A DNA stretch of 64,000 nucleotides from Escherichia phage OSYSP, in the sequence record MF402939; one strand, written 5' to 3'. Each line of letters opens with the position of its first letter. The stretch's first letter is position 1. Both the position numbers and the translations under genes were made by a program. Positions 2,454-40,095 of the stretch are shown in pieces. The notes beneath the pieces are model-generated. The model did no database searches and was not told where the DNA came from. It worked only from the letters and a program-made list of their open reading frames with translations.

Positions 2454-2820
2454 AATTGAAAACTCGCAGGGTTAGCGAAACCATCCTCAATTAGCATGTT
2501 CTAGAATACTAATCAAGTTATCTCCTATTGCACGCAGCTCAAGACGAGTACGAATTTTCAATTGTGGCGGCTCTCAGAAACTCTTCTATTCTAGCCTCAG
2601 AAGCTTACCCCCGAACGCATGTCGGGAAAGTCTTTCCAAGCGCATCAAATAGCACCGTTACACTTTGAGCCATTGATGTATCAAGGAATAGAAGGACTTG
2701 AACCTTCATGAGTTAGACCATTTAACTCAACCGCTTTTAAGGTATATTTCTAGGAGTGGATGTTCCTAGTAAACCTATTGGGCAGTCCCGTCTACCAATT
2801 CCGGCATATTCCAAGAATTT

Positions 2821-3003
2821 TTATAAACCAGCGGAAGCCTCATTTAAAGCATCAACAATAGCCTGTTGTTGAGTCCATCCTCTACCAGTAGAATTAACGT
2901 GTGGAAGATATACTTCCCAATAACCGTCTTCTAGTAAGGTTATTTGTGCACTAAACTCTGTGCCATCAGTTAGTGTAACCTTCACAGTTTTCGTTAAAGA
3001 CAT
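2821..3003 (-). CDS. hypothetical protein (60 aa)
   Basis: ORF track only; weak SD. Confidence 0.4.
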   Translation of the reverse strand: MSLTKTVKVTLTDGTEFSAQITLLEDGYWEVYLPHVNSTGRGWTQQQAIVDALNEASAGL

Positions 3004-3019
3004 ATATTACCCTATAAGT

Positions 3020-3109
3020 TGGCAGAAGATAATGGAGTCGAACCATCACCGTATCACTACAGCGGGCTGGTTTTCAAGACCAGTTACGTACCACTACGTC
3101 CTATCTTCT
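3020..3109 (-). tRNA. tRNA-Ser (anticodon TGA), type II
   Basis: Acceptor AGAAGAT/ATCTTCT, anticodon arm CTGGT-CTTGAAA-ACCAG, long variable arm, CCA encoded. Confidence 0.6.
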
Positions 3110-3122
3110 AGTATTTATTATA

Positions 3123-3470
3123 CTAATAGTCACTCGTACTAGTGAAGTTTTCTACTTTTCCACAGATTTTACAAGTCCTACGATGATAATAGGTAATTTT
3201 TACTTTAGACCAGCCATCGTGATCATTACCTAGGTTTTCTGTTACTCCCCAAGTATGAGAACACTCATTTTCAATTTGCTTAGTAAGAGCGTTATAGCGA
3301 GTATAAAACTCCTCCTGAGCAATAGCAAATTCTTTCTGTAGTTTATCACGAGCAATAATAGCACGTTCCAGATATGTTAAATCAGGCATTCCAGCTTTTT
3401 CAGCTGCATCTATAATCTTATCTTCATCTAAAGATGCTAAAAACTCTAGAGCTTTATCTTTTGCTAGCAT
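3123..3470 (-). CDS. hypothetical protein (115 aa) with C-terminal zinc-ribbon-like motif
   Basis: ORF track; GAGGT SD; C-terminal C..H...CKICG. Confidence 0.6.
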   Translation of the reverse strand: MLAKDKALEFLASLDEDKIIDAAEKAGMPDLTYLERAIIARDKLQKEFAIAQEEFYTRYNALTKQIENECSHTWGVTENLGNDHDGWSKVKITYYHRRTCKICGKVENFTSTSDY

Positions 3471-10790: not shown

Positions 10791-10852
10791 ATATGTTATG
10801 GATGAGTGATCAAAGAGACACACATTTTCTATATACTAGGAGGTGTCAAAAA

Positions 10853-11833
10853 ATGACAGAAGAAGTAGCTAAGAGTCCTGAAACCGTCGCTAGCGTAGCA
10901 GCAGAACTGCATCGTCACGAGGAATCAGATAAGAAAAAGTGGGAGAAAGTCAAAGCCTACGAGGAAAAACATCGTGAACACGATGAAGATGATGAAGAAG
11001 ATGACGATGATGAACATTGTCATAAATATGGAAAACATAAAATGCAAGAACCAGTAAACGTATTTACTAACGGCTTCCCTGGCATGGGTGCATTCCCAGC
11101 TAACGCAAGTGCTTTCGGTGGAGAAGGTATGGGTCTATTCGGAGCTATCCTAATCGGTGCTCTATTAACAGGCGGATTTGGTGGTTTTGGTGGTTTTGGT
11201 CGCGGTGCTGGCGTTGCCGCTGAAGGGACTGCTGTGGACGCGATCCTTTCTAACCAAGATACTGCAAGTATTCTAGCTGCAATCAATACTACTCGTACAG
11301 AAGCTAACCAGGGCACTGGGGCTGTTCTAAGCGCAGTAAACGGTGTGGGAGCTGCTCAAGCTGCTAGCACTCAGCAAGTTCTGACTACTGTCTACGGTAC
11401 AGGTGCTAATCTGTCAAACCAGATCTGTGCTGAAACTCGTAACGTTATTCAGGGTCAGTTCGATCTTTCTCGTCAGATGGATCAATCTTTCGCTGCTAAC
11501 CAGATAGCACGTGCTCAAGATAAGTTTGACTCTGCTCAGATTGCTTTCCAGCAGTCTATTCAGACTAACAACCAGTTCGCCGCTGTTCAGGCTCAGATGT
11601 GTGCTAACCAGAACGCTATCGAACGTCAGCTTGCTGAATGTTGCTGTGAGCTTCAGACTGCGATCGCTGGTGTAACTACTGCGCGTATTCAGGACGAACT
11701 GAATGAATGCCGTCTGCGTGAAGCAATCGCTCAAGGTAGTGGTGCAAATGGTCAGGTAATCAACCAAATCGCTGTAAGTCTTGGTGCTATCACTCAGACT
11801 CTGGCTGGTCTGCAGGCTAAACTGCCGGCTTAA
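10853..11833 (+). CDS. low-complexity protein (326 aa): acidic/His-rich N-terminus, Gly-rich hydrophobic segment, Ala/Gln/Asn-rich C-terminal domain
   Basis: Start set at ATG after AGGAGG (9-nt spacing) rather than track start 10793; segments EDDEEDDDDEHCHKYGKHK, GLFGAILIGALLTGGFGGFGGFGRGAG and CCC triplet; ctg/cgt/gct-biased codons; opposite strand to neighbours. Confidence 0.7.
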   Translation: MTEEVAKSPETVASVAAELHRHEESDKKKWEKVKAYEEKHREHDEDDEEDDDDEHCHKYGKHKMQEPVNVFTNGFPGMGAFPANASAFGGEGMGLFGAILIGALLTGGFGGFGGFGRGAGVAAEGTAVDAILSNQDTASILAAINTTRTEANQGTGAVLSAVNGVGAAQAASTQQVLTTVYGTGANLSNQICAETRNVIQGQFDLSRQMDQSFAANQIARAQDKFDSAQIAFQQSIQTNNQFAAVQAQMCANQNAIERQLAECCCELQTAIAGVTTARIQDELNECRLREAIAQGSGANGQVINQIAVSLGAITQTLAGLQAKLPA

Positions 11834-11854: not shown

Positions 11855-12271
11855 ATGAGTAAATATGGTTTTGTAAACAACGGATTTAATCAACAAATGG
11901 GCTCCCAGCAGCCCGTTCCGGGTCTGGATAATCCTTACCTACAACAGTTGCAACAGCGTTTAGCAGAAGCTCAACAGATGCAGCAACAACTCCAGCAAAA
12001 CCCTGGAAGTGTGAGTCCTATGCAAATGATGCAGCAAATGAGCGGGCAGTCGCAAATGCCTCAACAAATGCAGCAACAGGTGCCTCAGCAGCAAGTTCAG
12101 CAACAAACCCAACAACCGCAGGTTTCTGCGGAAGGACAGGCAGTACTAGCCCTTTTCGAAGATTTCGCAAAGACAGAGGATGGGAAACAGCTTGTATCAC
12201 TTATGGGTAAGTTTAATAGCTTCTGCCAAAGCCAAGTTGCAAAAGCTCAAAATGGTGATAATAACTCCTAA
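11855..12271 (+). CDS. glutamine-rich low-complexity protein (138 aa)
   Basis: ORF track; AAGGGGAGGAG SD; long Q/M-rich tracts (QQMQQQLQQ...QQMQQQVPQQQVQQQTQQPQ). Confidence 0.65.
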   Translation: MSKYGFVNNGFNQQMGSQQPVPGLDNPYLQQLQQRLAEAQQMQQQLQQNPGSVSPMQMMQQMSGQSQMPQQMQQQVPQQQVQQQTQQPQVSAEGQAVLALFEDFAKTEDGKQLVSLMGKFNSFCQSQVAKAQNGDNNS

Positions 12272-12280
12272 GGAGGAATT

Positions 12281-12475
12281 ATGTGTTGCAGAAAATCTGT
12301 TTCGTGCTGCCCAATGCCTGTAGCACGTTGTTGCTCTCCAGCAATGTTTACACAAATACCGGCGTTCAATCCCTTTGCCTTTAAGCCTATTCTTATCCTG
12401 CCCCCTAGAGTAGATTTTCAGTCAAGATTGGCCTCCCGTATGGGTGGTTGCTGTAACAAGAGTATATGGTTCTAA
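12281..12475 (+). CDS. small cysteine-rich protein (64 aa; CC doublets)
   Basis: ORF track; AAGGAGG SD; MCCRKSVSCCPMPVARCCSP...GGCCNKS; followed by an intrinsic terminator. Confidence 0.55.
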   Translation: MCCRKSVSCCPMPVARCCSPAMFTQIPAFNPFAFKPILILPPRVDFQSRLASRMGGCCNKSIWF

Positions 12476-12536: not shown

Positions 12537-12571
12537 CAGAAAAGCCCGCGCTCTCGGAGAAAACGCGGGCT
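12537..12571 (-). terminator. rho-independent terminator after the SPFH gene
   Basis: Hairpin GCCCGCG-loop-CGCGGGC followed by TTTT on minus strand; convergent with the previous terminator. Confidence 0.6.
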
Positions 12572-12595
12572 TAGTTCGAAGATTACGTGTAACTA

Positions 12596-13543
12596 TTACT
12601 TGTTACGCATATCCATGATCATTTGACCATCATAGCCAGTGCCAACTACAGTCTGAGGTACACCACCTTGATATTTCTGAGCACGAATCATCTCAACTTC
12701 CAGTTGTTTCCAACGAATCATCTCAGGAGTAATGGTACGTTGCAGTGCGGCGTTAGCTTCAGCTTCTTTCTTAGCTGCGTACAGTTTAGCATCTGCGTCA
12801 CGTTCATTAGCAATAGCTTGGTTATTGCGAGCTTCACGATCTGCTTCTGCTTGTTTAACTTTTTGCTGTGCTTCCTGTTCAACGCGGGCAAGTTCAGCTT
12901 TCGCAGCGTTAACTTGCTCTTCACGAACTTTGGTATTCTGTACCTGTTCCATGATTACCGGTGGCAAAGTAATATCTTGAAGAAACACCTGCTTAACTGT
13001 GTAACCATATGGGCGTGCATACTCTTCAACTTCCTGTTGAATTGCAGTTTGCAATTGAGCCTGAATTTTAGCATCAAACAAATCTTGTGCTTTAGGTACA
13101 GACTTACCAAACTCACAAATAGTAGATAGTAATTTTTCAGTTACATATTTGTCTAACGCTTGATCCTGAGTACCTGCATTAATACGGTTAATCGGTGCCT
13201 TAGAACCATCAAACTGCAACATAACAGTCAGATCAACAGTGGATTTAAACTTATCCTGACTAGGAACCTGAAGTTTATCTAATTTTACAGCAATATCTTT
13301 TGTACTAAAAGTATCGAAAGATGCAAACGGGTTTACAATATGGAAACCAGGTAATACTGGATTAGGGTCTACTTTACCCAGGAATGTTTGAGTTTTAACC
13401 GTACCATCAGAAACAATAGTATATGAATTAAAAGCTAGGATTAAACCTGCTAAACCAACTACAGCACCAATACCCCAACGTTTAATAGTGCGAATTACTT
13501 TTTGCTCAGAAGTCAGTTCTTTCATATTTTTAGTATTAAACAT
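12596..13543 (-). CDS. SPFH/band-7 (HflK/HflC-like) membrane protein
   Basis: 315 aa; N-terminal hydrophobic helix (IGAVVGLAGLILAF), then SPFH-like core and long Ala/Glu/Gln-rich coiled coil; AAGGA SD. Confidence 0.6.
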   Translation of the reverse strand: MFNTKNMKELTSEQKVIRTIKRWGIGAVVGLAGLILAFNSYTIVSDGTVKTQTFLGKVDPNPVLPGFHIVNPFASFDTFSTKDIAVKLDKLQVPSQDKFKSTVDLTVMLQFDGSKAPINRINAGTQDQALDKYVTEKLLSTICEFGKSVPKAQDLFDAKIQAQLQTAIQQEVEEYARPYGYTVKQVFLQDITLPPVIMEQVQNTKVREEQVNAAKAELARVEQEAQQKVKQAEADREARNNQAIANERDADAKLYAAKKEAEANAALQRTITPEMIRWKQLEVEMIRAQKYQGGVPQTVVGTGYDGQMIMDMRNK

Positions 13544-13580
13544 ATATTTCCTTTGTTTTAGTTACAGTTAATAAAATTGA

Positions 13581-13652
13581 CCGAGGTGACAGGATTCGAA
13601 CCTGCATAAAGGAATTTAGAAGACTCCTGCCTCTCCCTTAGACTACACCCCG
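13581..13652 (-). tRNA. tRNA-Arg (anticodon TCT), CCA not encoded
   Basis: Acceptor CGGGGTG/CACCTCG, anticodon arm GGAGT-CTTCTAA-ATTCC, T-arm GCAGG-TTCGAAT-CCTGT. Confidence 0.55.
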
Positions 13653-14152
13653 TTTAAGTATTTTTAAGAACTCTCGTAAAAACTCTTAAAAATACAGACG
13701 ATACCGGGAGAGTCATAAGTCTCACTCATTAAGTATTTCAAGACAAAATACAGTAACGTCTATTATTTTCCAGTTTAAGTCAGGGTGACTTAGTGGTTAT
13801 GTCCTGCGGTATATTGAGGACTCGGTTAGGCTTGGGGTCATGACTTCCCGCCTTTTGCTGCTACTCAACAGGAGTTATCGCGAATTACCTGTGCTATTGT
13901 GCACCATTAGTGACATCTCTCATGTCAGCATTTCCCACTTTGTGGATAGCTTGAAAAACTACTCCGATATGGAGAAAGAACTTCACTATCCTAGAATACC
14001 TTCTAAAGTTCTTCTTTAGCCTGGACATAGTTAAATCGTAATAAAACTATTCAGCAGACTGGTTGGTTAGTCTGGAACCAACTACCGCGTGGTTTAGGCA
14101 GTGCGCAACTAACCTCGGAAGCTTTTACGTTAAAAGCATCAGTTATCCAGTT

Positions 14153-14230
14153 CTTACCGACCGTAGGATTCGAACCTACATCTTCCACCAGTTACGGCTT
14201 GATAATACCAATTATACTAGGACGGCAGTG
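14153..14230 (-). tRNA. tRNA-like element, non-canonical (no foldable anticodon stem)
   Basis: T-arm GTAGG-TTCGAAT-CCTAC, D-loop-like AATTGGTA, acceptor GCCGTCC/GGTCGGT with one mismatch; no anticodon arm can be formed. Confidence 0.3.
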
Positions 14231-14449
14231 TTACTACATAAGTGATTTCCACACCCCACTATTTATAAATTAGAGAAGAGTTTAGGGGAGAGGTTTCAGA
14301 CGCCTCATTTTACACGTTCTAGCCACTAACCGGGATTGCCGCCCCCTGTGTACTAGTTTTACAACTAACCCACCGACTCTATTCAATGCGCTCCGGTTGG
14401 GATTCTGCACTCAGCGTAATCGGCTCGCTGTTCCCTAATTTATGAATAT

Positions 14450-14478
14450 ATTATACAGAATTTATAAGCATTTAGCAA
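14450..14478 (-). promoter_or_regulatory. sigma70-type early promoter (TTGCTA-17-TATAAT)
   Basis: Consensus hexamers on minus strand. Confidence 0.6.
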
Positions 14479-14486
14479 ATAAATTT

Positions 14487-14930
14487 TTAATTAAATTCGC
14501 CAGCAATCTGAGCAGCAGTACCACCATCATAACGCCCGGGAAATTCTTCCTTAATCGCTTTCATCAGCATACCTTTTGTAATTCCAGGGTTTAGCTTAAC
14601 TAATTCTGCAAAGTATTTACGAATCTCAGTATCAGATAACTGAGGAGGCAGATACTCCTGCAACCACTTATTTAGAATGTATTCATACTGAGCGGACTGC
14701 AAGCTATAACTATCAAGATCTTGACCATGAAGTTTAGCTTTCATCTGGTTAATGCTTTTTAGTTGAGCTTTGAGATAAGACACAAATTGTTCAGAAGTGA
14801 TGAAATCTTTATCAATACGCTGAAGATCCCCGATTATGGTCTGATAGCTTTTAGCGACTTCTTTATCAGAACCATTAAACTTAGAATCCTGCAAAGCTCT
14901 ACGCAAAACATCTAAAATATTCTCTTCCAT
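14487..14930 (-). CDS. GatB/YqeY-domain-like protein (147 aa)
   Basis: ORF track; size and motifs (GITKGMLMKAIKEEFPGRYDGGTAAQIAGE) resemble YqeY-family proteins; start overlaps stop of upstream small ORF. Confidence 0.5.
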   Translation of the reverse strand: MEENILDVLRRALQDSKFNGSDKEVAKSYQTIIGDLQRIDKDFITSEQFVSYLKAQLKSINQMKAKLHGQDLDSYSLQSAQYEYILNKWLQEYLPPQLSDTEIRKYFAELVKLNPGITKGMLMKAIKEEFPGRYDGGTAAQIAGEFN

Positions 14931-15168: not shown

Positions 15169-15636
15169 TTAAGTTTTAGTGACAACAGGTTTATAAAACG
15201 TATGTCCCTTAATCTTAGTTGTTTTCTTAAACTTCTTTGTCCAGTAAGGTTTATCTTTACCACTATGGAAGTATAGTGCTCCATATGTAGGATCTTGTGG
15301 TAAATCAACGTAGTATATCACTCTAGCTAAATTCTTAGCGGTTTGCCAAGCCTCATCAGTTTTATCAACTTTTGGTCTCTTAGATACCCAAGAGAACTGG
15401 TTAGACTGATATACTACTTTACAGTAGGAATCTGGGAATTTACCGGAGTTTACACGGTTTTTAGTAACGTGTGCAATCGCCGTCATTCCCTTTATGCCCT
15501 CACCACGACTTTCGAAATAGATATTTTTAGCAATGCAATCTATTTCTTTTGCATCGTGCGATGCCTGACTACTAAAGCTGAAGGTAAGGGCAGCTACTAA
15601 AAGCAAAGCTGCCTTCATTCTTTTTACTCCTGCCAA
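15169..15636 (-). CDS. secreted cell-wall hydrolase, SleB/CwlJ-like domain, with signal peptide
   Basis: 155 aa; N-terminal signal peptide (MKAALLLVAALTFSFSSQA); core resembles the SleB/Hydrolase_2 family; start overlaps upstream gene. Confidence 0.55.
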   Translation of the reverse strand: MAGVKRMKAALLLVAALTFSFSSQASHDAKEIDCIAKNIYFESRGEGIKGMTAIAHVTKNRVNSGKFPDSYCKVVYQSNQFSWVSKRPKVDKTDEAWQTAKNLARVIYYVDLPQDPTYGALYFHSGKDKPYWTKKFKKTTKIKGHTFYKPVVTKT

Positions 15637-15941
15637 TCATATTCAACACGATTGGGGTTTTCTTTGTACCCTAAGTCAAGCAAATCATTACGCATATGTT
15701 GCTTAGCTACTGGGTTCGAGGTTACTAGTACCACTTTCTTTGGTCTCTGCCCAAATTCTAAGAGTAAACGAAGAATTTGATAACCTTCCATACCATCTAC
15801 AGCCAAGTCATTATCCATATAAACGAAGTGGCCTGTGGTATCAGTTTTATTCAGAAACTCTACAGCGGCTTCTGGGGTTCGAATGATAATGTCCATTCCG
15901 TGAAGATTACGCACATCATCAATCAAAATATGAAAAGTCAT
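15624..15941 (-). CDS. stand-alone receiver (CheY-like REC) domain-like protein
   Basis: 105 aa; HILIDDV...VYMDNDL...DGMEGYQILR...VVLVTSNP pattern resembles a response-regulator receiver fold; GAGG SD. Confidence 0.45.
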   Translation of the reverse strand: MTFHILIDDVRNLHGMDIIIRTPEAAVEFLNKTDTTGHFVYMDNDLAVDGMEGYQILRLLLEFGQRPKKVVLVTSNPVAKQHMRNDLLDLGYKENPNRVEYDWQE

Positions 15942-39318: not shown

Positions 39319-40095
39319 ATGAAAATCGAAATTCCAACACAATGTCCCTCTTGTGGTTCTAAGCTAGATCTTGTCAACGGACAATTATTCTGTCGTAATA
39401 AGTCCAACTGTCCAGCGCAATCAAGTAAGTTAATTGAGAACTTCTGTACAAAAATGAAGTTAAAGGGCTTTGGCCCGAAAACTATTGAAAAGCTGGAGCT
39501 GACTAAGATTTCAGAACTATTTTACCTAACCGAAGAAGATTTGGTTAGAGCCGTGGGTAGCAAGGTTGCCGCTAAGTTAATTAGCGAATTAAATACTAAA
39601 GTTCGTGGAGACATTGACTTTGGTTCAGTTCTCGGTTCTTTAGGAATCCCTCTAATTGGAGAGGTTGCAGCAAAGAAATTGTCCCAAAATTGCACCAGTT
39701 TTCAAGATGTGAGAGCTGATGGCAAAGCTGGAGAAAACTATAAAGCCTGGCTAAATTCCCCACAAGGCAAGGATGTTATCGAATTACCGTGGAAATTCTC
39801 AAATGGTATTAAGGGTGCTAAAGCTGACATCATTACTGATGGTCTAGTAGCCCAACCAAACGGAATAACGGTGTGTATTACCGGATCTTTGCAAGATTTT
39901 GCAAATCGAACGGATGCAACAAACTATTTAGAAGGTCTAGGATACACGGTTAAGAAATCCGTTACCAAAGACGTCAAATACCTAATCTGTGAGGATGAAT
40001 CGAAGCGTTCTTCCTCATCTTATAAGAAAGCCGAAACGAATGGGATAGAAATCCTGTCGATTAAAGAACTATTGGAGAAAAATAATAATGTCTAA
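39319..40095 (+). CDS. NAD-dependent DNA ligase, C-terminal part (Zn-finger, HhH, BRCT-like; split ligase subunit B)
   Basis: Start at ATG after AAGGAAG; N-terminal CPSCGS...C..KSNCP zinc finger as found after the OB-fold in LigA. Confidence 0.65.
   Translation: MKIEIPTQCPSCGSKLDLVNGQLFCRNKSNCPAQSSKLIENFCTKMKLKGFGPKTIEKLELTKISELFYLTEEDLVRAVGSKVAAKLISELNTKVRGDIDFGSVLGSLGIPLIGEVAAKKLSQNCTSFQDVRADGKAGENYKAWLNSPQGKDVIELPWKFSNGIKGAKADIITDGLVAQPNGITVCITGSLQDFANRTDATNYLEGLGYTVKKSVTKDVKYLICEDESKRSSSSYKKAETNGIEILSIKELLEKNNNV

What the first reader, a model, noticed from the sequence alone, without database searches (positions are those of the whole stretch)
12596..13543. Phage-encoded SPFH/band-7 membrane protein
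The 315-aa protein has one N-terminal transmembrane helix, an SPFH-like core and a long charged coiled coil, like HflK/HflC or flotillin-like proteins that scaffold membrane microdomains and regulate FtsH. In a phage this could modulate host membrane proteases or serve in superinfection exclusion.
Basis: partly seen in the sequence, partly recalled or inferred. Interest (0 to 1): 0.4.

Follow-up and report, generated by a model that had tools for sequence, protein, structure and literature searches.

The report
T5 phage SPFH membrane-cage protein (T5.080)
This is a real gene for a prohibitin-like SPFH/band-7 inner-membrane protein, the already-annotated T5.080 of T5-like phages; it is conserved in nature but dispensable in the laboratory, and its role is still unknown.

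Summary
The ORF at 12596-13543 (minus strand, 315 aa) is real. It is the orthologue of phage T5 gene T5.080, about 99% identical. Pfam Band_7 matches at E=5.7e-19. An AlphaFold model (pLDDT 80) aligns over 270-305 columns with full-length SPFH cage protomers: erlin, prohibitin, HflK/C, stomatin, QmcA and flotillin. It has one N-terminal TM helix, an SPFH core, a 76-residue helix and a conserved C-terminal tail.

Refinements found here:
- The common "lipoprotein" label is unsupported; none of 22 members has a lipobox.
- It is not an HflK/C orthologue, has no NfeD partner and no second paralogue.
- Its K/R-rich N-tail predicts a periplasm-facing domain, as in HflK/C.
- It belongs to a narrow subfamily exchanged among unrelated virulent phages (75-80% identity between T5-like and T4-like phages), with chromosomal relatives in Morganellaceae and methylotrophs.
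- It is under strong purifying selection (dN/dS 0.01-0.13), yet it is "Not Fit" in the T5 CRISPRi-ART screen and deleted in the natural isolate NG_S8.

Modulation of FtsH and superinfection exclusion both remain untested speculation.

The parts
12596..13543 (-). CDS for the 315-aa SPFH/band-7 protein, orthologue of T5.080 (stop codon at 12596-12598)
   Evidence: ORF list. Pfam Band_7 E=5.7e-19. PHROG 200 E=2e-85. T5 reference annotation. dN/dS 0.007-0.13.
13478..13543 (-). Codons 1-22: short N-terminal tail rich in K/R (6 K/R), predicted to be cytoplasmic
   Evidence: All 22 family members have a net-positive N-flank. HflK and HflC (periplasmic) also have K/R tails, whereas cytoplasm-facing QmcA has none. 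The orientation is inferred, not shown.
13415..13477 (-). Codons 23-43: the single transmembrane helix (membrane anchor)
   Evidence: Hydropathy scan. Residues 12-38 are helical in the AF2 model.
12962..13414 (-). Codons 44-194: SPFH alpha/beta core, including the invariant VPSQDK motif (res 93-98)
   Evidence: Pfam match. AF2 strands 41-111 and 181-192 and helices 113-179. Invariant columns in alignment A1. Foldseek PDB matches.
12734..12961 (-). Codons 195-270: 76-residue continuous helix, the likely wall (CC1) of an SPFH cage
   Evidence: AF2 helix 195-270 at pLDDT about 80-90. It aligns with the CC1 helices of erlin, PHB and HflK/C. Its length varies among 228 homologues in a 4-4-3 hendecad series.
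12599..12733 (-). Codons 271-315: second short helix plus the conserved C-terminal tail (TITPEM..W..Y.GGVP.TVVG), the likely cap region
   Evidence: Invariant or near-invariant columns T270-T272, W278, Y291, G293, V295, P296. AF2 helix 273-290, then a low-confidence tail, as expected for a segment that folds only in the oligomer.
13547..13553 (-). Shine-Dalgarno AAGGAAA upstream of the ATG
   Evidence: Read directly from the sequence.
12542..12572 (-). Intrinsic terminator after the stop (14-bp stem, 8 G-C pairs, T-run); it corresponds to the bidirectional terminator annotated in T5
   Evidence: Terminator scan. T5 record feature at 39678-39720.
13581..13652 (-). tRNA-Arg(TCT), immediately upstream on the same strand and probably co-transcribed
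   Evidence: ARAGORN. Rfam tRNA 49.3 bits. T5 annotation.
14450..14478 (-). Sigma-70-like promoter TTGCTA-17-TATAAT (10/12), the likely start of the RNAX / tRNA-Arg / SPFH transcription unit
   Evidence: Promoter scan. Its position matches promoter 'P 16-17' in the T5 record. This is a consensus match only.

Best explanation
The gene encodes an accessory inner-membrane protein of the SPFH (stomatin/prohibitin/flotillin/HflKC) superfamily with a prohibitin-like layout. A short positively charged cytoplasmic tail is followed by one TM helix, an SPFH core, a roughly 11-nm helix and a conserved C-terminal tail. It is made from an early, sigma-70-type transcription unit together with tRNA-Arg.

The most likely mechanism is as follows. 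The protein inserts N-in/C-out, so the SPFH domain sits on the periplasmic face, as in HflK/C. There it homo-oligomerises into a ring or dome whose wall is built from the long helices. That dome fences off a patch of inner membrane and whatever client it encloses. By analogy with HflKC-FtsH, prohibitin-m-AAA and QmcA-FtsH, the prime candidate client is the host membrane protease FtsH. The consequence would be altered turnover or protection of membrane proteins during infection.

Shown here: coding gene, SPFH family and fold, single TM helix, no lipobox, no partner gene, strong purifying selection, horizontal spread among phages, and dispensability in the laboratory.

Inferred, with my estimates: periplasmic orientation (about 0.65), homo-oligomeric cage (about 0.7), FtsH as client (about 0.25-0.3).
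For: - Family and fold: Pfam Band_7 E=5.7e-19. AF2 model pLDDT 79.7, matching full-length protomers of erlin1/2 (4.5e-15), PHB1/2, HflK/C, stomatin, QmcA and flotillin over 270-305 columns. Sequence hits to PHB2 and QmcA.
- Anchor and orientation: one TM helix, with a K/R-rich N-flank in all 22 members. The same rule separates HflK/HflC (periplasmic) from QmcA (cytoplasmic).
- Cage wall: the long helix is conserved, and its length classes follow 4-4-3 steps. Fourteen of 19 classes fit 11/3 residues per turn (p=0.014) against 8 of 19 for a heptad.
- Stand-alone module: no NfeD gene and no second SPFH gene in 19 phage loci. T5-like and T4-like phages share 75-80% amino-acid identity, so the protein must act on something common to the hosts rather than on a phage-specific partner.
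- Envelope-related neighbours: antiholin rI, a signal-peptide SleB-type hydrolase and a DUF1190 lipoprotein.
- Early transcription unit.
- Selection: dN/dS 0.007-0.13.
- Accessory status: 'Not Fit' in the T5 CRISPRi-ART screen and an in-frame deletion of residues 19-277 in the isolate NG_S8.
Against: - There is no direct evidence for oligomerisation, orientation or any client.
- The positive-inside rule is a weak predictor for one helix with a short tail.
- The sequence is very far from HflK/HflC, so FtsH-contact residues cannot be transferred.
- No NCBIfam or PADLOC model matches.
- The envelope-related neighbours lie in hyperplastic accessory regions, and the linkage could be chance or co-transfer.
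- The hendecad pattern is only modestly significant, and the sequences are not phylogenetically independent.
- E. coli already has HflKC, QmcA and YqiK, so it is unclear why a phage would need to add another cage.
- The lack of a knock-down phenotype means no function has yet been demonstrated.
Confidence: 0.6

Rival explanations
1. Membrane-integrity or lysis-timing factor. The SPFH assembly stabilises the inner membrane or organises holin/antiholin patches. That would prevent premature depolarisation (from DNA-entry channels, early holin triggering, or membrane-targeting abortive-infection effectors), with no protease involved. The analogy is with flotillin and with PspA-linked SPFH proteins.
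For: In RB43/Slopekvirus-type T4-like phages the gene directly follows the antiholin rI and rI.-1. In T5-likes and three other lineages a periplasmic SleB-type hydrolase lies 1-5 genes away. Aeromonas T4-likes place it next to a DUF1190 lipoprotein and a glutathionylspermidine-synthase-like gene. From my own knowledge, that pair resembles the E. coli yjfM-yjfC genes of a PspA-type operon. Bacterial SPFH proteins linked to the Psp membrane-stress response are documented (PMC8581546). A conditional role would explain the 'Not Fit' laboratory phenotype.
Against: The neighbours lie in plastic regions, and none is conserved across all lineages. T5 is not known for T4-style lysis inhibition. The gene is early, not late. 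No PADLOC or anti-defence signature was found.
Confidence: 0.2
2. Superinfection-exclusion protein. The membrane assembly blocks genome entry of secondary phages at the inner membrane, as T4 Imm does.
For: Early expression, inner-membrane location, accessory status and exchange among unrelated virulent phages fit the general profile of exclusion genes.
Against: No known exclusion protein is an SPFH protein, to my knowledge. From established knowledge, T5 already excludes through Llp acting on FhuA. Chromosomal relatives sit among housekeeping genes in methylotrophs (trpBA-accD-folC), which suggests a general cellular role. The roughly 300-aa cage architecture is far more elaborate than typical exclusion proteins.
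Confidence: 0.1
3. Outer- or inner-membrane lipoprotein, as labelled in the T5 reference record and in PHROG 200.
For: The annotation 'lipoprotein' appears in NC_005859 and in many derived records, and it is the name of PHROG 200.
Against: No lipobox ([LVI][ASTVI][GAS]C) occurs in the first 60 residues of any of 22 family members. The window protein's only Cys is residue 143, and most members have no Cys at all. The hydrophobic segment is preceded by a tail of up to 24 residues and is followed directly by the SPFH core, which is how the membrane anchor sits in other SPFH proteins.
Confidence: 0.02

Closest known systems
Phage T5 gene T5.080 (YP_006908) / PHROG 200, and its orthologues 44RRORF098c, Aeh1ORF064c and RB43ORF139c
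   Same: Same gene. It is 98.7% identical to T5 in the same position: tRNA-Arg upstream, bidirectional terminator downstream. The family is already flagged as SPFH/Band 7 in Nolan et al. 2006 (PMC1524935) and in many GenBank and UniProt entries.
   Different: Nothing of substance. The reference label 'lipoprotein' is not supported by the sequence.
Prohibitin (PHB1/PHB2) and the bacterial prohibitin-like SPFH4 group of Hinderhofer et al. 2009
   Same: Similar length (about 270-315 aa). Both have an N-terminal anchor, an SPFH core, a long CC1 helix and a short C-terminal tail. Both are predicted to face away from the cytoplasm or matrix. PHB2 is the best or second-best sequence hit among solved structures, and PHB1/2 are among the top fold hits.
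   Different: Only 15-18% identity. It is a single gene rather than a PHB1/PHB2 hetero-pair. It is encoded by virulent phages. SPFH4 membership could not be tested directly because no SPFH4 model is available.
E. coli HflK/HflC (the FtsH-enclosing cage)
   Same: Same fold and domain order (7vhq, 7wi3, 9cz2). Both have a K/R N-tail followed by a TM helix, which predicts the same N-in/periplasmic-out topology.
   Different: No significant sequence match: hhalign probability 6% for HflK, and 66% over only 32 columns for HflC. No NCBIfam HflK or HflC hit. There is no paired paralogue, and the protein lacks HflK's long N-terminal extension.
E. coli QmcA-YbbJ (stomatin-type SPFH with an NfeD partner)
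   Same: Best profile-to-sequence hit among solved structures (6.7e-7) and a similar size.
   Different: QmcA has no N-terminal tail and faces the cytoplasm (and the literature). It is encoded next to the NfeD gene ybbJ. No NfeD-like gene accompanies the phage gene.
Erlin1/2 and flotillin cages
   Same: Erlin is the top Foldseek hit (4.5e-15). Flotillin also matches (about 4e-8).
   Different: These are eukaryotic ER and plasma-membrane proteins. Flotillins are more than 400 aa with a long Flot domain and hairpin or lipid anchors. The similarity is at the level of the shared superfamily architecture only.

Membership tests
SPFH / Band 7 superfamily | Match to the Pfam Band_7 (PF01145) profile above the gathering threshold | tested here: met
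   69.3 bits against a threshold of 23.6, E=5.7e-19, residues 52-225. All listed homologues carry PF01145.
SPFH / Band 7 superfamily | SPFH alpha/beta fold followed by a long coiled-coil helix | tested here: met
   AF2 model at pLDDT 79.7. Foldseek hits to erlin, PHB, HflK/C, stomatin, QmcA and flotillin at E 1e-8 to 4.5e-15 over 265-305 columns.
SPFH / Band 7 superfamily | Membrane anchoring near the N-terminus | tested here: met
   A single hydrophobic 19-residue window (KD 1.8-3.0) occurs within the first 45 residues of all 22 members.
SPFH / Band 7 superfamily | Assembly into a large ring or cage oligomer | not testable with these tools
   Only monomer prediction is available. The indirect hint is the hendecad-quantised helix length and the low-confidence but conserved C-tail.
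HflK/HflC (SPFH3) | Sequence membership in the HflK or HflC family models | tested here: not met
   No NCBIfam hit at E<=0.1. hhalign against E. coli HflK gives probability 6%; against HflC, 66% over 32 columns.
HflK/HflC (SPFH3) | Two adjacent paralogous genes forming a hetero-oligomer | tested here: not met
   A single SPFH gene in all 19 phage loci examined and in the chromosomal loci.
HflK/HflC (SPFH3) | Type II topology with a periplasmic SPFH domain | tested here: inconclusive
   Charge bias predicts N-in/C-out, as for HflK/HflC. This is a prediction only.
HflK/HflC (SPFH3) | Physical association with FtsH | not testable with these tools
   Needs co-purification or complex prediction.
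Stomatin / QmcA type (SPFH1) | Operon partner of the NfeD family | tested here: not met
   E. coli qmcA is adjacent to ybbJ. No NfeD Pfam hit was found among the conserved phage neighbours, and the T5 unit contains no other CDS.
Flotillin (SPFH2) | More than 400 aa with an extended flotillin C-terminal domain | tested here: not met
   315 aa. No flotillin-domain Pfam hit. Flotillin structures cover the query, but TM-score normalised to the target is only 0.30-0.36.
Prohibitin-like (PHB / SPFH4) | Closest similarity to prohibitins, about 270-310 aa, N-terminal anchor, domain facing away from the cytoplasm | tested here: inconclusive
   PHB2 scores E=5e-5 and QmcA 6e-5 to 7e-7, so there is no clear preference. 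PHB and erlin are the top fold hits. No SPFH4-specific model is available.
Bacterial lipoprotein (the label in the T5 record and PHROG 200) | Signal peptide ending in a lipobox with an invariant Cys | tested here: not met
   No lipobox in 22 of 22 members. The window protein's only Cys is residue 143.
Known anti-phage defence proteins containing SPFH | Match to a PADLOC model | tested here: not met
   No PADLOC hit at E<=0.1.

The most novel reading that the evidence does not exclude
The most novel reading not excluded is that virulent phages of several unrelated families deploy their own periplasm-facing, homo-oligomeric SPFH cage early in infection. The cage would capture a host inner-membrane client (FtsH, or the holin/antiholin machinery). 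This would reprogramme membrane-protein quality control or lysis timing, or shield the infected cell from membrane-targeting abortive-infection systems. The Morganellaceae chromosomal copies would then be domesticated phage genes. This would be the first assigned function for any viral SPFH protein.
Probability: 0.2. Interest if true: 0.6.

Novelty: already known. Interest (0 to 1): 0.22.

Why it matters
SPFH cages are a current structural-biology topic (HflKC-FtsH, prohibitin, erlin, flotillin and stomatin structures, 2022-2026). No viral SPFH protein has an assigned function, although the fold occurs in many phages and giant viruses. T5.080 is a tractable test case. It lies in a model phage, is non-essential in the laboratory, is strongly constrained in nature and is exchanged among T5-like, T4-like and other virulent phages. 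Finding its client would show what part of inner-membrane physiology these phages need to control. As a scan finding, however, it re-identifies an annotated domain, so it adds little by itself. The practical outputs here are the correction of the 'lipoprotein' label, the predicted periplasmic orientation, and the evidence that the gene is a conditionally useful accessory gene.

Tried and rejected
- NCBIfam and PADLOC scans gave no hits, so there is no equivalog name and no link to a known defence system.
- hhalign of the family profile against single E. coli HflK and HflC sequences gave only short, weak matches. This was not useful for transferring interface residues.
- The afdb50 fold library was unavailable, so the nearest annotated cellular structures could not be listed.
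- I looked for a conserved partner gene (NfeD or a second SPFH) in 19 phage loci and found none.
- I considered and rejected the 'lipoprotein' annotation.
- Literature searches for functional work on phage SPFH proteins or T5.080 found only genome-annotation mentions.
- The phiR2-01 proteogenomics paper does not mention the orthologue g069 in its main text. The CRISPRi-ART preprint supplement lacked the gene, but the published version had it.
- One literature query failed on term length.
- The hendecad test is reported as suggestive only, because the allowed set covers 46% of integers and the sequences are related.
- The neighbour-joining tree has no bootstrap support, so the direction of transfer between phages and Morganellaceae is tentative.

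Full report
**The window and the gene.** The window is a T5-like phage (Tequintavirus). The 3.5 kb around the finding is 97.9% identical to Salmonella phage VSe12 and 96-98% identical to many other T5-like genomes. The first 14 kb carry 23 tRNA genes, which is the tRNA-rich early region of T5. The ORF at 12596-13543 is on the minus strand, starts with ATG and encodes 315 aa. An AAGGA Shine-Dalgarno lies 5 nt upstream of the ATG. A terminator with a 14-bp stem lies just past the stop, at 12572-12542. In the T5 reference record the orthologue is T5.080, labelled "lipoprotein ... contains single transmembrane domain". There it is flanked by tRNA-Arg and the stable "RNAX" upstream and by a bidirectional terminator downstream. 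The window has the same layout:
- a 10/12 sigma-70-like promoter at 14478-14450
- a tRNA-like element at 14155-14226
- tRNA-Arg at 13581-13652
- the SPFH ORF
- the terminator

**Checking the observation.**
- Hydropathy finds a single hydrophobic segment at about residues 23-43 and nothing comparable elsewhere in the protein.
- Pfam Band_7 matches residues 52-225 at 69.3 bits, against a threshold of 23.6 (E=5.7e-19).
- An AlphaFold2 model built on a 22-sequence family alignment has mean pLDDT 79.7. It shows helix 12-38, a beta-rich SPFH core, one continuous helix over residues 195-270, a second helix over 273-290, and a low-confidence C-terminal tail.
- Foldseek against the PDB returns full-length SPFH protomers over 265-305 aligned columns: erlin1/2 (4.5e-15), prohibitin 1/2, HflK/HflC, stomatin, QmcA, flotillin and, more distantly, major vault protein.
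- Sequence searches of solved structures find prohibitin-2 and QmcA.
- The gene is a real coding gene under constraint. tblastn finds it in 724 phage records, and dN/dS among T5-like orthologues is 0.007-0.13 with dS up to about 1.

**What is already known.** The SPFH identification is not new.
- Several GenBank records annotate this orthologue as "SPFH domain protein" or "band 7 family protein".
- Nolan et al. 2006 listed Pfam SPFH hits for the T4-like orthologues 44RRORF098c, Aeh1ORF064c and RB43ORF139c (PMC1524935).
- BFVD holds SPFH-fold proteins from many phages and giant viruses.
- No functional study was found. A 2026 paper states that the reason an SPFH gene is found in a phage genome "remains unclear" (PMC13239085).

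**Refinements from this work.**

1. *The "lipoprotein" label is not supported.* This label is used in the T5 record, PHROG 200 and many derived records. None of 22 family members has a lipobox. The window protein's only cysteine is residue 143.

2. *Subfamily placement.* No NCBIfam model matches, so the HflK and HflC models do not match. The family profile aligns with E. coli HflK and HflC only over short stretches. There is no adjacent paralogue and no NfeD gene, whereas E. coli qmcA sits next to ybbJ. The protein is also too short for a flotillin. It is best described as a stand-alone, prohibitin-like SPFH protein.

3. *Orientation.* All members have an N-terminal tail with 1-6 K/R residues and a near-neutral C-flank. 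Applied to proteins of known topology, the same rule groups this protein with HflK and HflC (periplasmic, K/R tail) and not with QmcA (cytoplasmic, no tail). A periplasm-facing domain is therefore predicted, but this is an inference.

4. *The long helix.* Among 228 homologues its length falls almost entirely into the classes -25, -14, -11, -7, -3, 0, +4, +8, +11, +15, +19, +22, +26 and +30 residues, which is a 4-4-3 series. Fourteen of 19 non-zero classes fit 11/3 residues per turn (p=0.014), against 8 of 19 for a heptad (p=0.56). This is what would be expected if the helix has to keep its faces in register within a parallel helical wall, as in SPFH cages. The sequences are related to one another, so I treat this as suggestive only.

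**Distribution and origin.** An exhaustive profile search finds only 1,895 cluster representatives at E<=1e-3 among 1.84 billion, with 330 at E<=1e-10. The family is therefore a narrow branch of a very large superfamily.
- Close members (55-99% identity) come from several phage groups: T5-like phages; T4-like phages of Klebsiella, Enterobacter, Cronobacter, Citrobacter (RB43, Slopekvirus and Karamvirus types) and Aeromonas; roughly 90-kb Proteus and Salmonella phages; and Vibrio phages.
- T5-like and T4-like proteins share 75-80% identity, although from established knowledge these phage families are otherwise unrelated. That points to recent horizontal exchange of a self-contained module.
- Chromosomal relatives exist in Morganella and Providencia (57-59%) and in methylotrophic Gammaproteobacteria and a few other lineages (30-41%).
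- Their neighbours are ordinary cellular genes: a permease, TetR, ADH and HlyD/ABC genes in Morganella; LysR, a racemase and a bestrophin-like gene in Providencia; trpB-trpA-accD-folC in a Methylophagaceae genome.
- In a neighbour-joining tree the Morganellaceae copies nest inside the phage clade, while the methylotroph copies form a sister clade. This hints at phage-to-chromosome transfer in Morganellaceae, but the tree has no support values.

**Genomic context.** No neighbour is conserved across all lineages. The recurrent neighbours are related to the cell envelope.
- In RB43/Slopekvirus-type phages the gene follows the antiholin rI (PF24205) and rI.-1.
- In T5-likes and three other contigs (L094, L095, L096) a signal-peptide Hydrolase_2 (SleB-type) protein lies nearby. 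A cREC_REC protein accompanies it in the T5-likes and in L096.
- In Aeromonas T4-likes the gene is followed by a pilin-like small membrane protein and a DUF1190 lipoprotein.
- These are plastic accessory regions, so the linkage is weak evidence.

**Dispensability.** The published T5 CRISPRi-ART screen classes T5.080 as "Not Fit" (7 guides; score -4.28; second listed value 0.85; PMC11879866 supplement). The natural Epseptimavirus isolate NG_S8 carries an in-frame deletion that fuses residues 1-18 to 278-315, removing the TM helix, the SPFH core and the long helix. Together with the low dN/dS, this describes a conditionally useful accessory gene.

**Mechanism.** The best-supported account is an early-expressed inner-membrane protein that forms a homo-oligomeric, probably periplasm-facing SPFH cage enclosing a patch of inner membrane. 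By analogy with HflKC-FtsH, prohibitin-m-AAA and QmcA-FtsH (established knowledge; PMC2636767), FtsH is the leading candidate client. Nothing here tests that, and I put it at about 0.25-0.3. The rival readings are:
- membrane stabilisation or lysis timing, about 0.2
- superinfection exclusion, about 0.1
- a true lipoprotein, about 0.02

**Verdict.** The finding is ordinary and already annotated, and the open question is the protein's function. Interest is low to moderate.

Noticed in passing
window 14155-14226 (-), within about 13653-14450: A tRNA-like element scores 35.5 bits on Rfam tRNA (gathering score 29), but ARAGORN missed it. It lies inside the stretch that the T5 record calls 'RNAX, stable RNA with unknown functions', and VSe12 annotates it as a pseudo 'tRNA-OTHER'.
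   Followed up: partly
window 10793-11833 (+) and 11855-12271 (+): Two plus-strand genes converge on the SPFH gene inside an otherwise minus-strand region (T5.077 and T5.078). The first is a 346-aa protein with an acidic N-part, a Gly-rich hydrophobic segment and a Q/A-rich C-part. The second is a 138-aa Q-rich protein. Neither has a Pfam hit, both are 'Not Fit' in CRISPRi-ART, and both are absent from the Epseptimavirus-type locus L087.
   Followed up: partly
window 12281-12475 (+): A 64-aa Cys-rich ORF (MCCRKSVSCCPMPVARCCSP...) corresponding to T5.079. It is a singleton in PHROGs according to the CRISPRi-ART supplement.
   Followed up: no
window 15169-15636 (-) and 15624-15941 (-): T5.083 is a signal-peptide Hydrolase_2 (SleB-type) cell-wall hydrolase (Pfam 3.8e-25). 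It is labelled 'endolysin', although from established knowledge T5's lysis cassette lies elsewhere. T5.084 is a cREC_REC (cyclic-phosphate processing receiver) domain protein. The hydrolase recurs a few genes from the SPFH gene in the unrelated phage contigs L094, L095 and L096, and the hydrolase/cREC_REC pair recurs in L096.
   Followed up: partly
window 14487-14930 (-): The gene annotated 'tRNA amidotransferase' (T5.081) matches only the YqeY-like family, and below threshold (25.4 bits against 27). The enzymatic label therefore looks over-stated.
   Followed up: no
L143 (phage NG_S8, LC788711) 2750-3129: In this natural T5-like isolate the SPFH gene is reduced to a 55-aa in-frame fusion (residues 1-18 joined to 278-315 at a short IR/IRW repeat). 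An unrelated 66-aa ORF sits between tRNA-Arg and the remnant.
   Followed up: yes
L004 (Aeromonas phage 31) 3914-7415; L109-L111: In Aeromonas T4-like phages the SPFH gene is followed by a pilin-like N-methylation-motif protein, a DUF1190 lipoprotein and, about 1.4 kb further on, a glutathionylspermidine-synthase-like gene. From memory, DUF1190 plus a GSP-synthase-like gene resembles the E. coli yjfM-yjfC and ygiB-ygiC pairs linked to PspA-type operons.
   Followed up: no
L018, L010, L032 (chromosomal loci): Chromosomal members of this SPFH subfamily occur in Morganella and Providencia at non-syntenic sites, and directly downstream of trpB-trpA-accD-folC in a Methylophagaceae genome. In a neighbour-joining tree without support values the Morganellaceae copies nest within the phage clade.
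   Followed up: partly
window 1-64000: GC skew changes sign near 27-28 kb and again near 54 kb. This probably tracks switches in the predominant coding strand, but gene orientation around these points was not examined.
   Followed up: no
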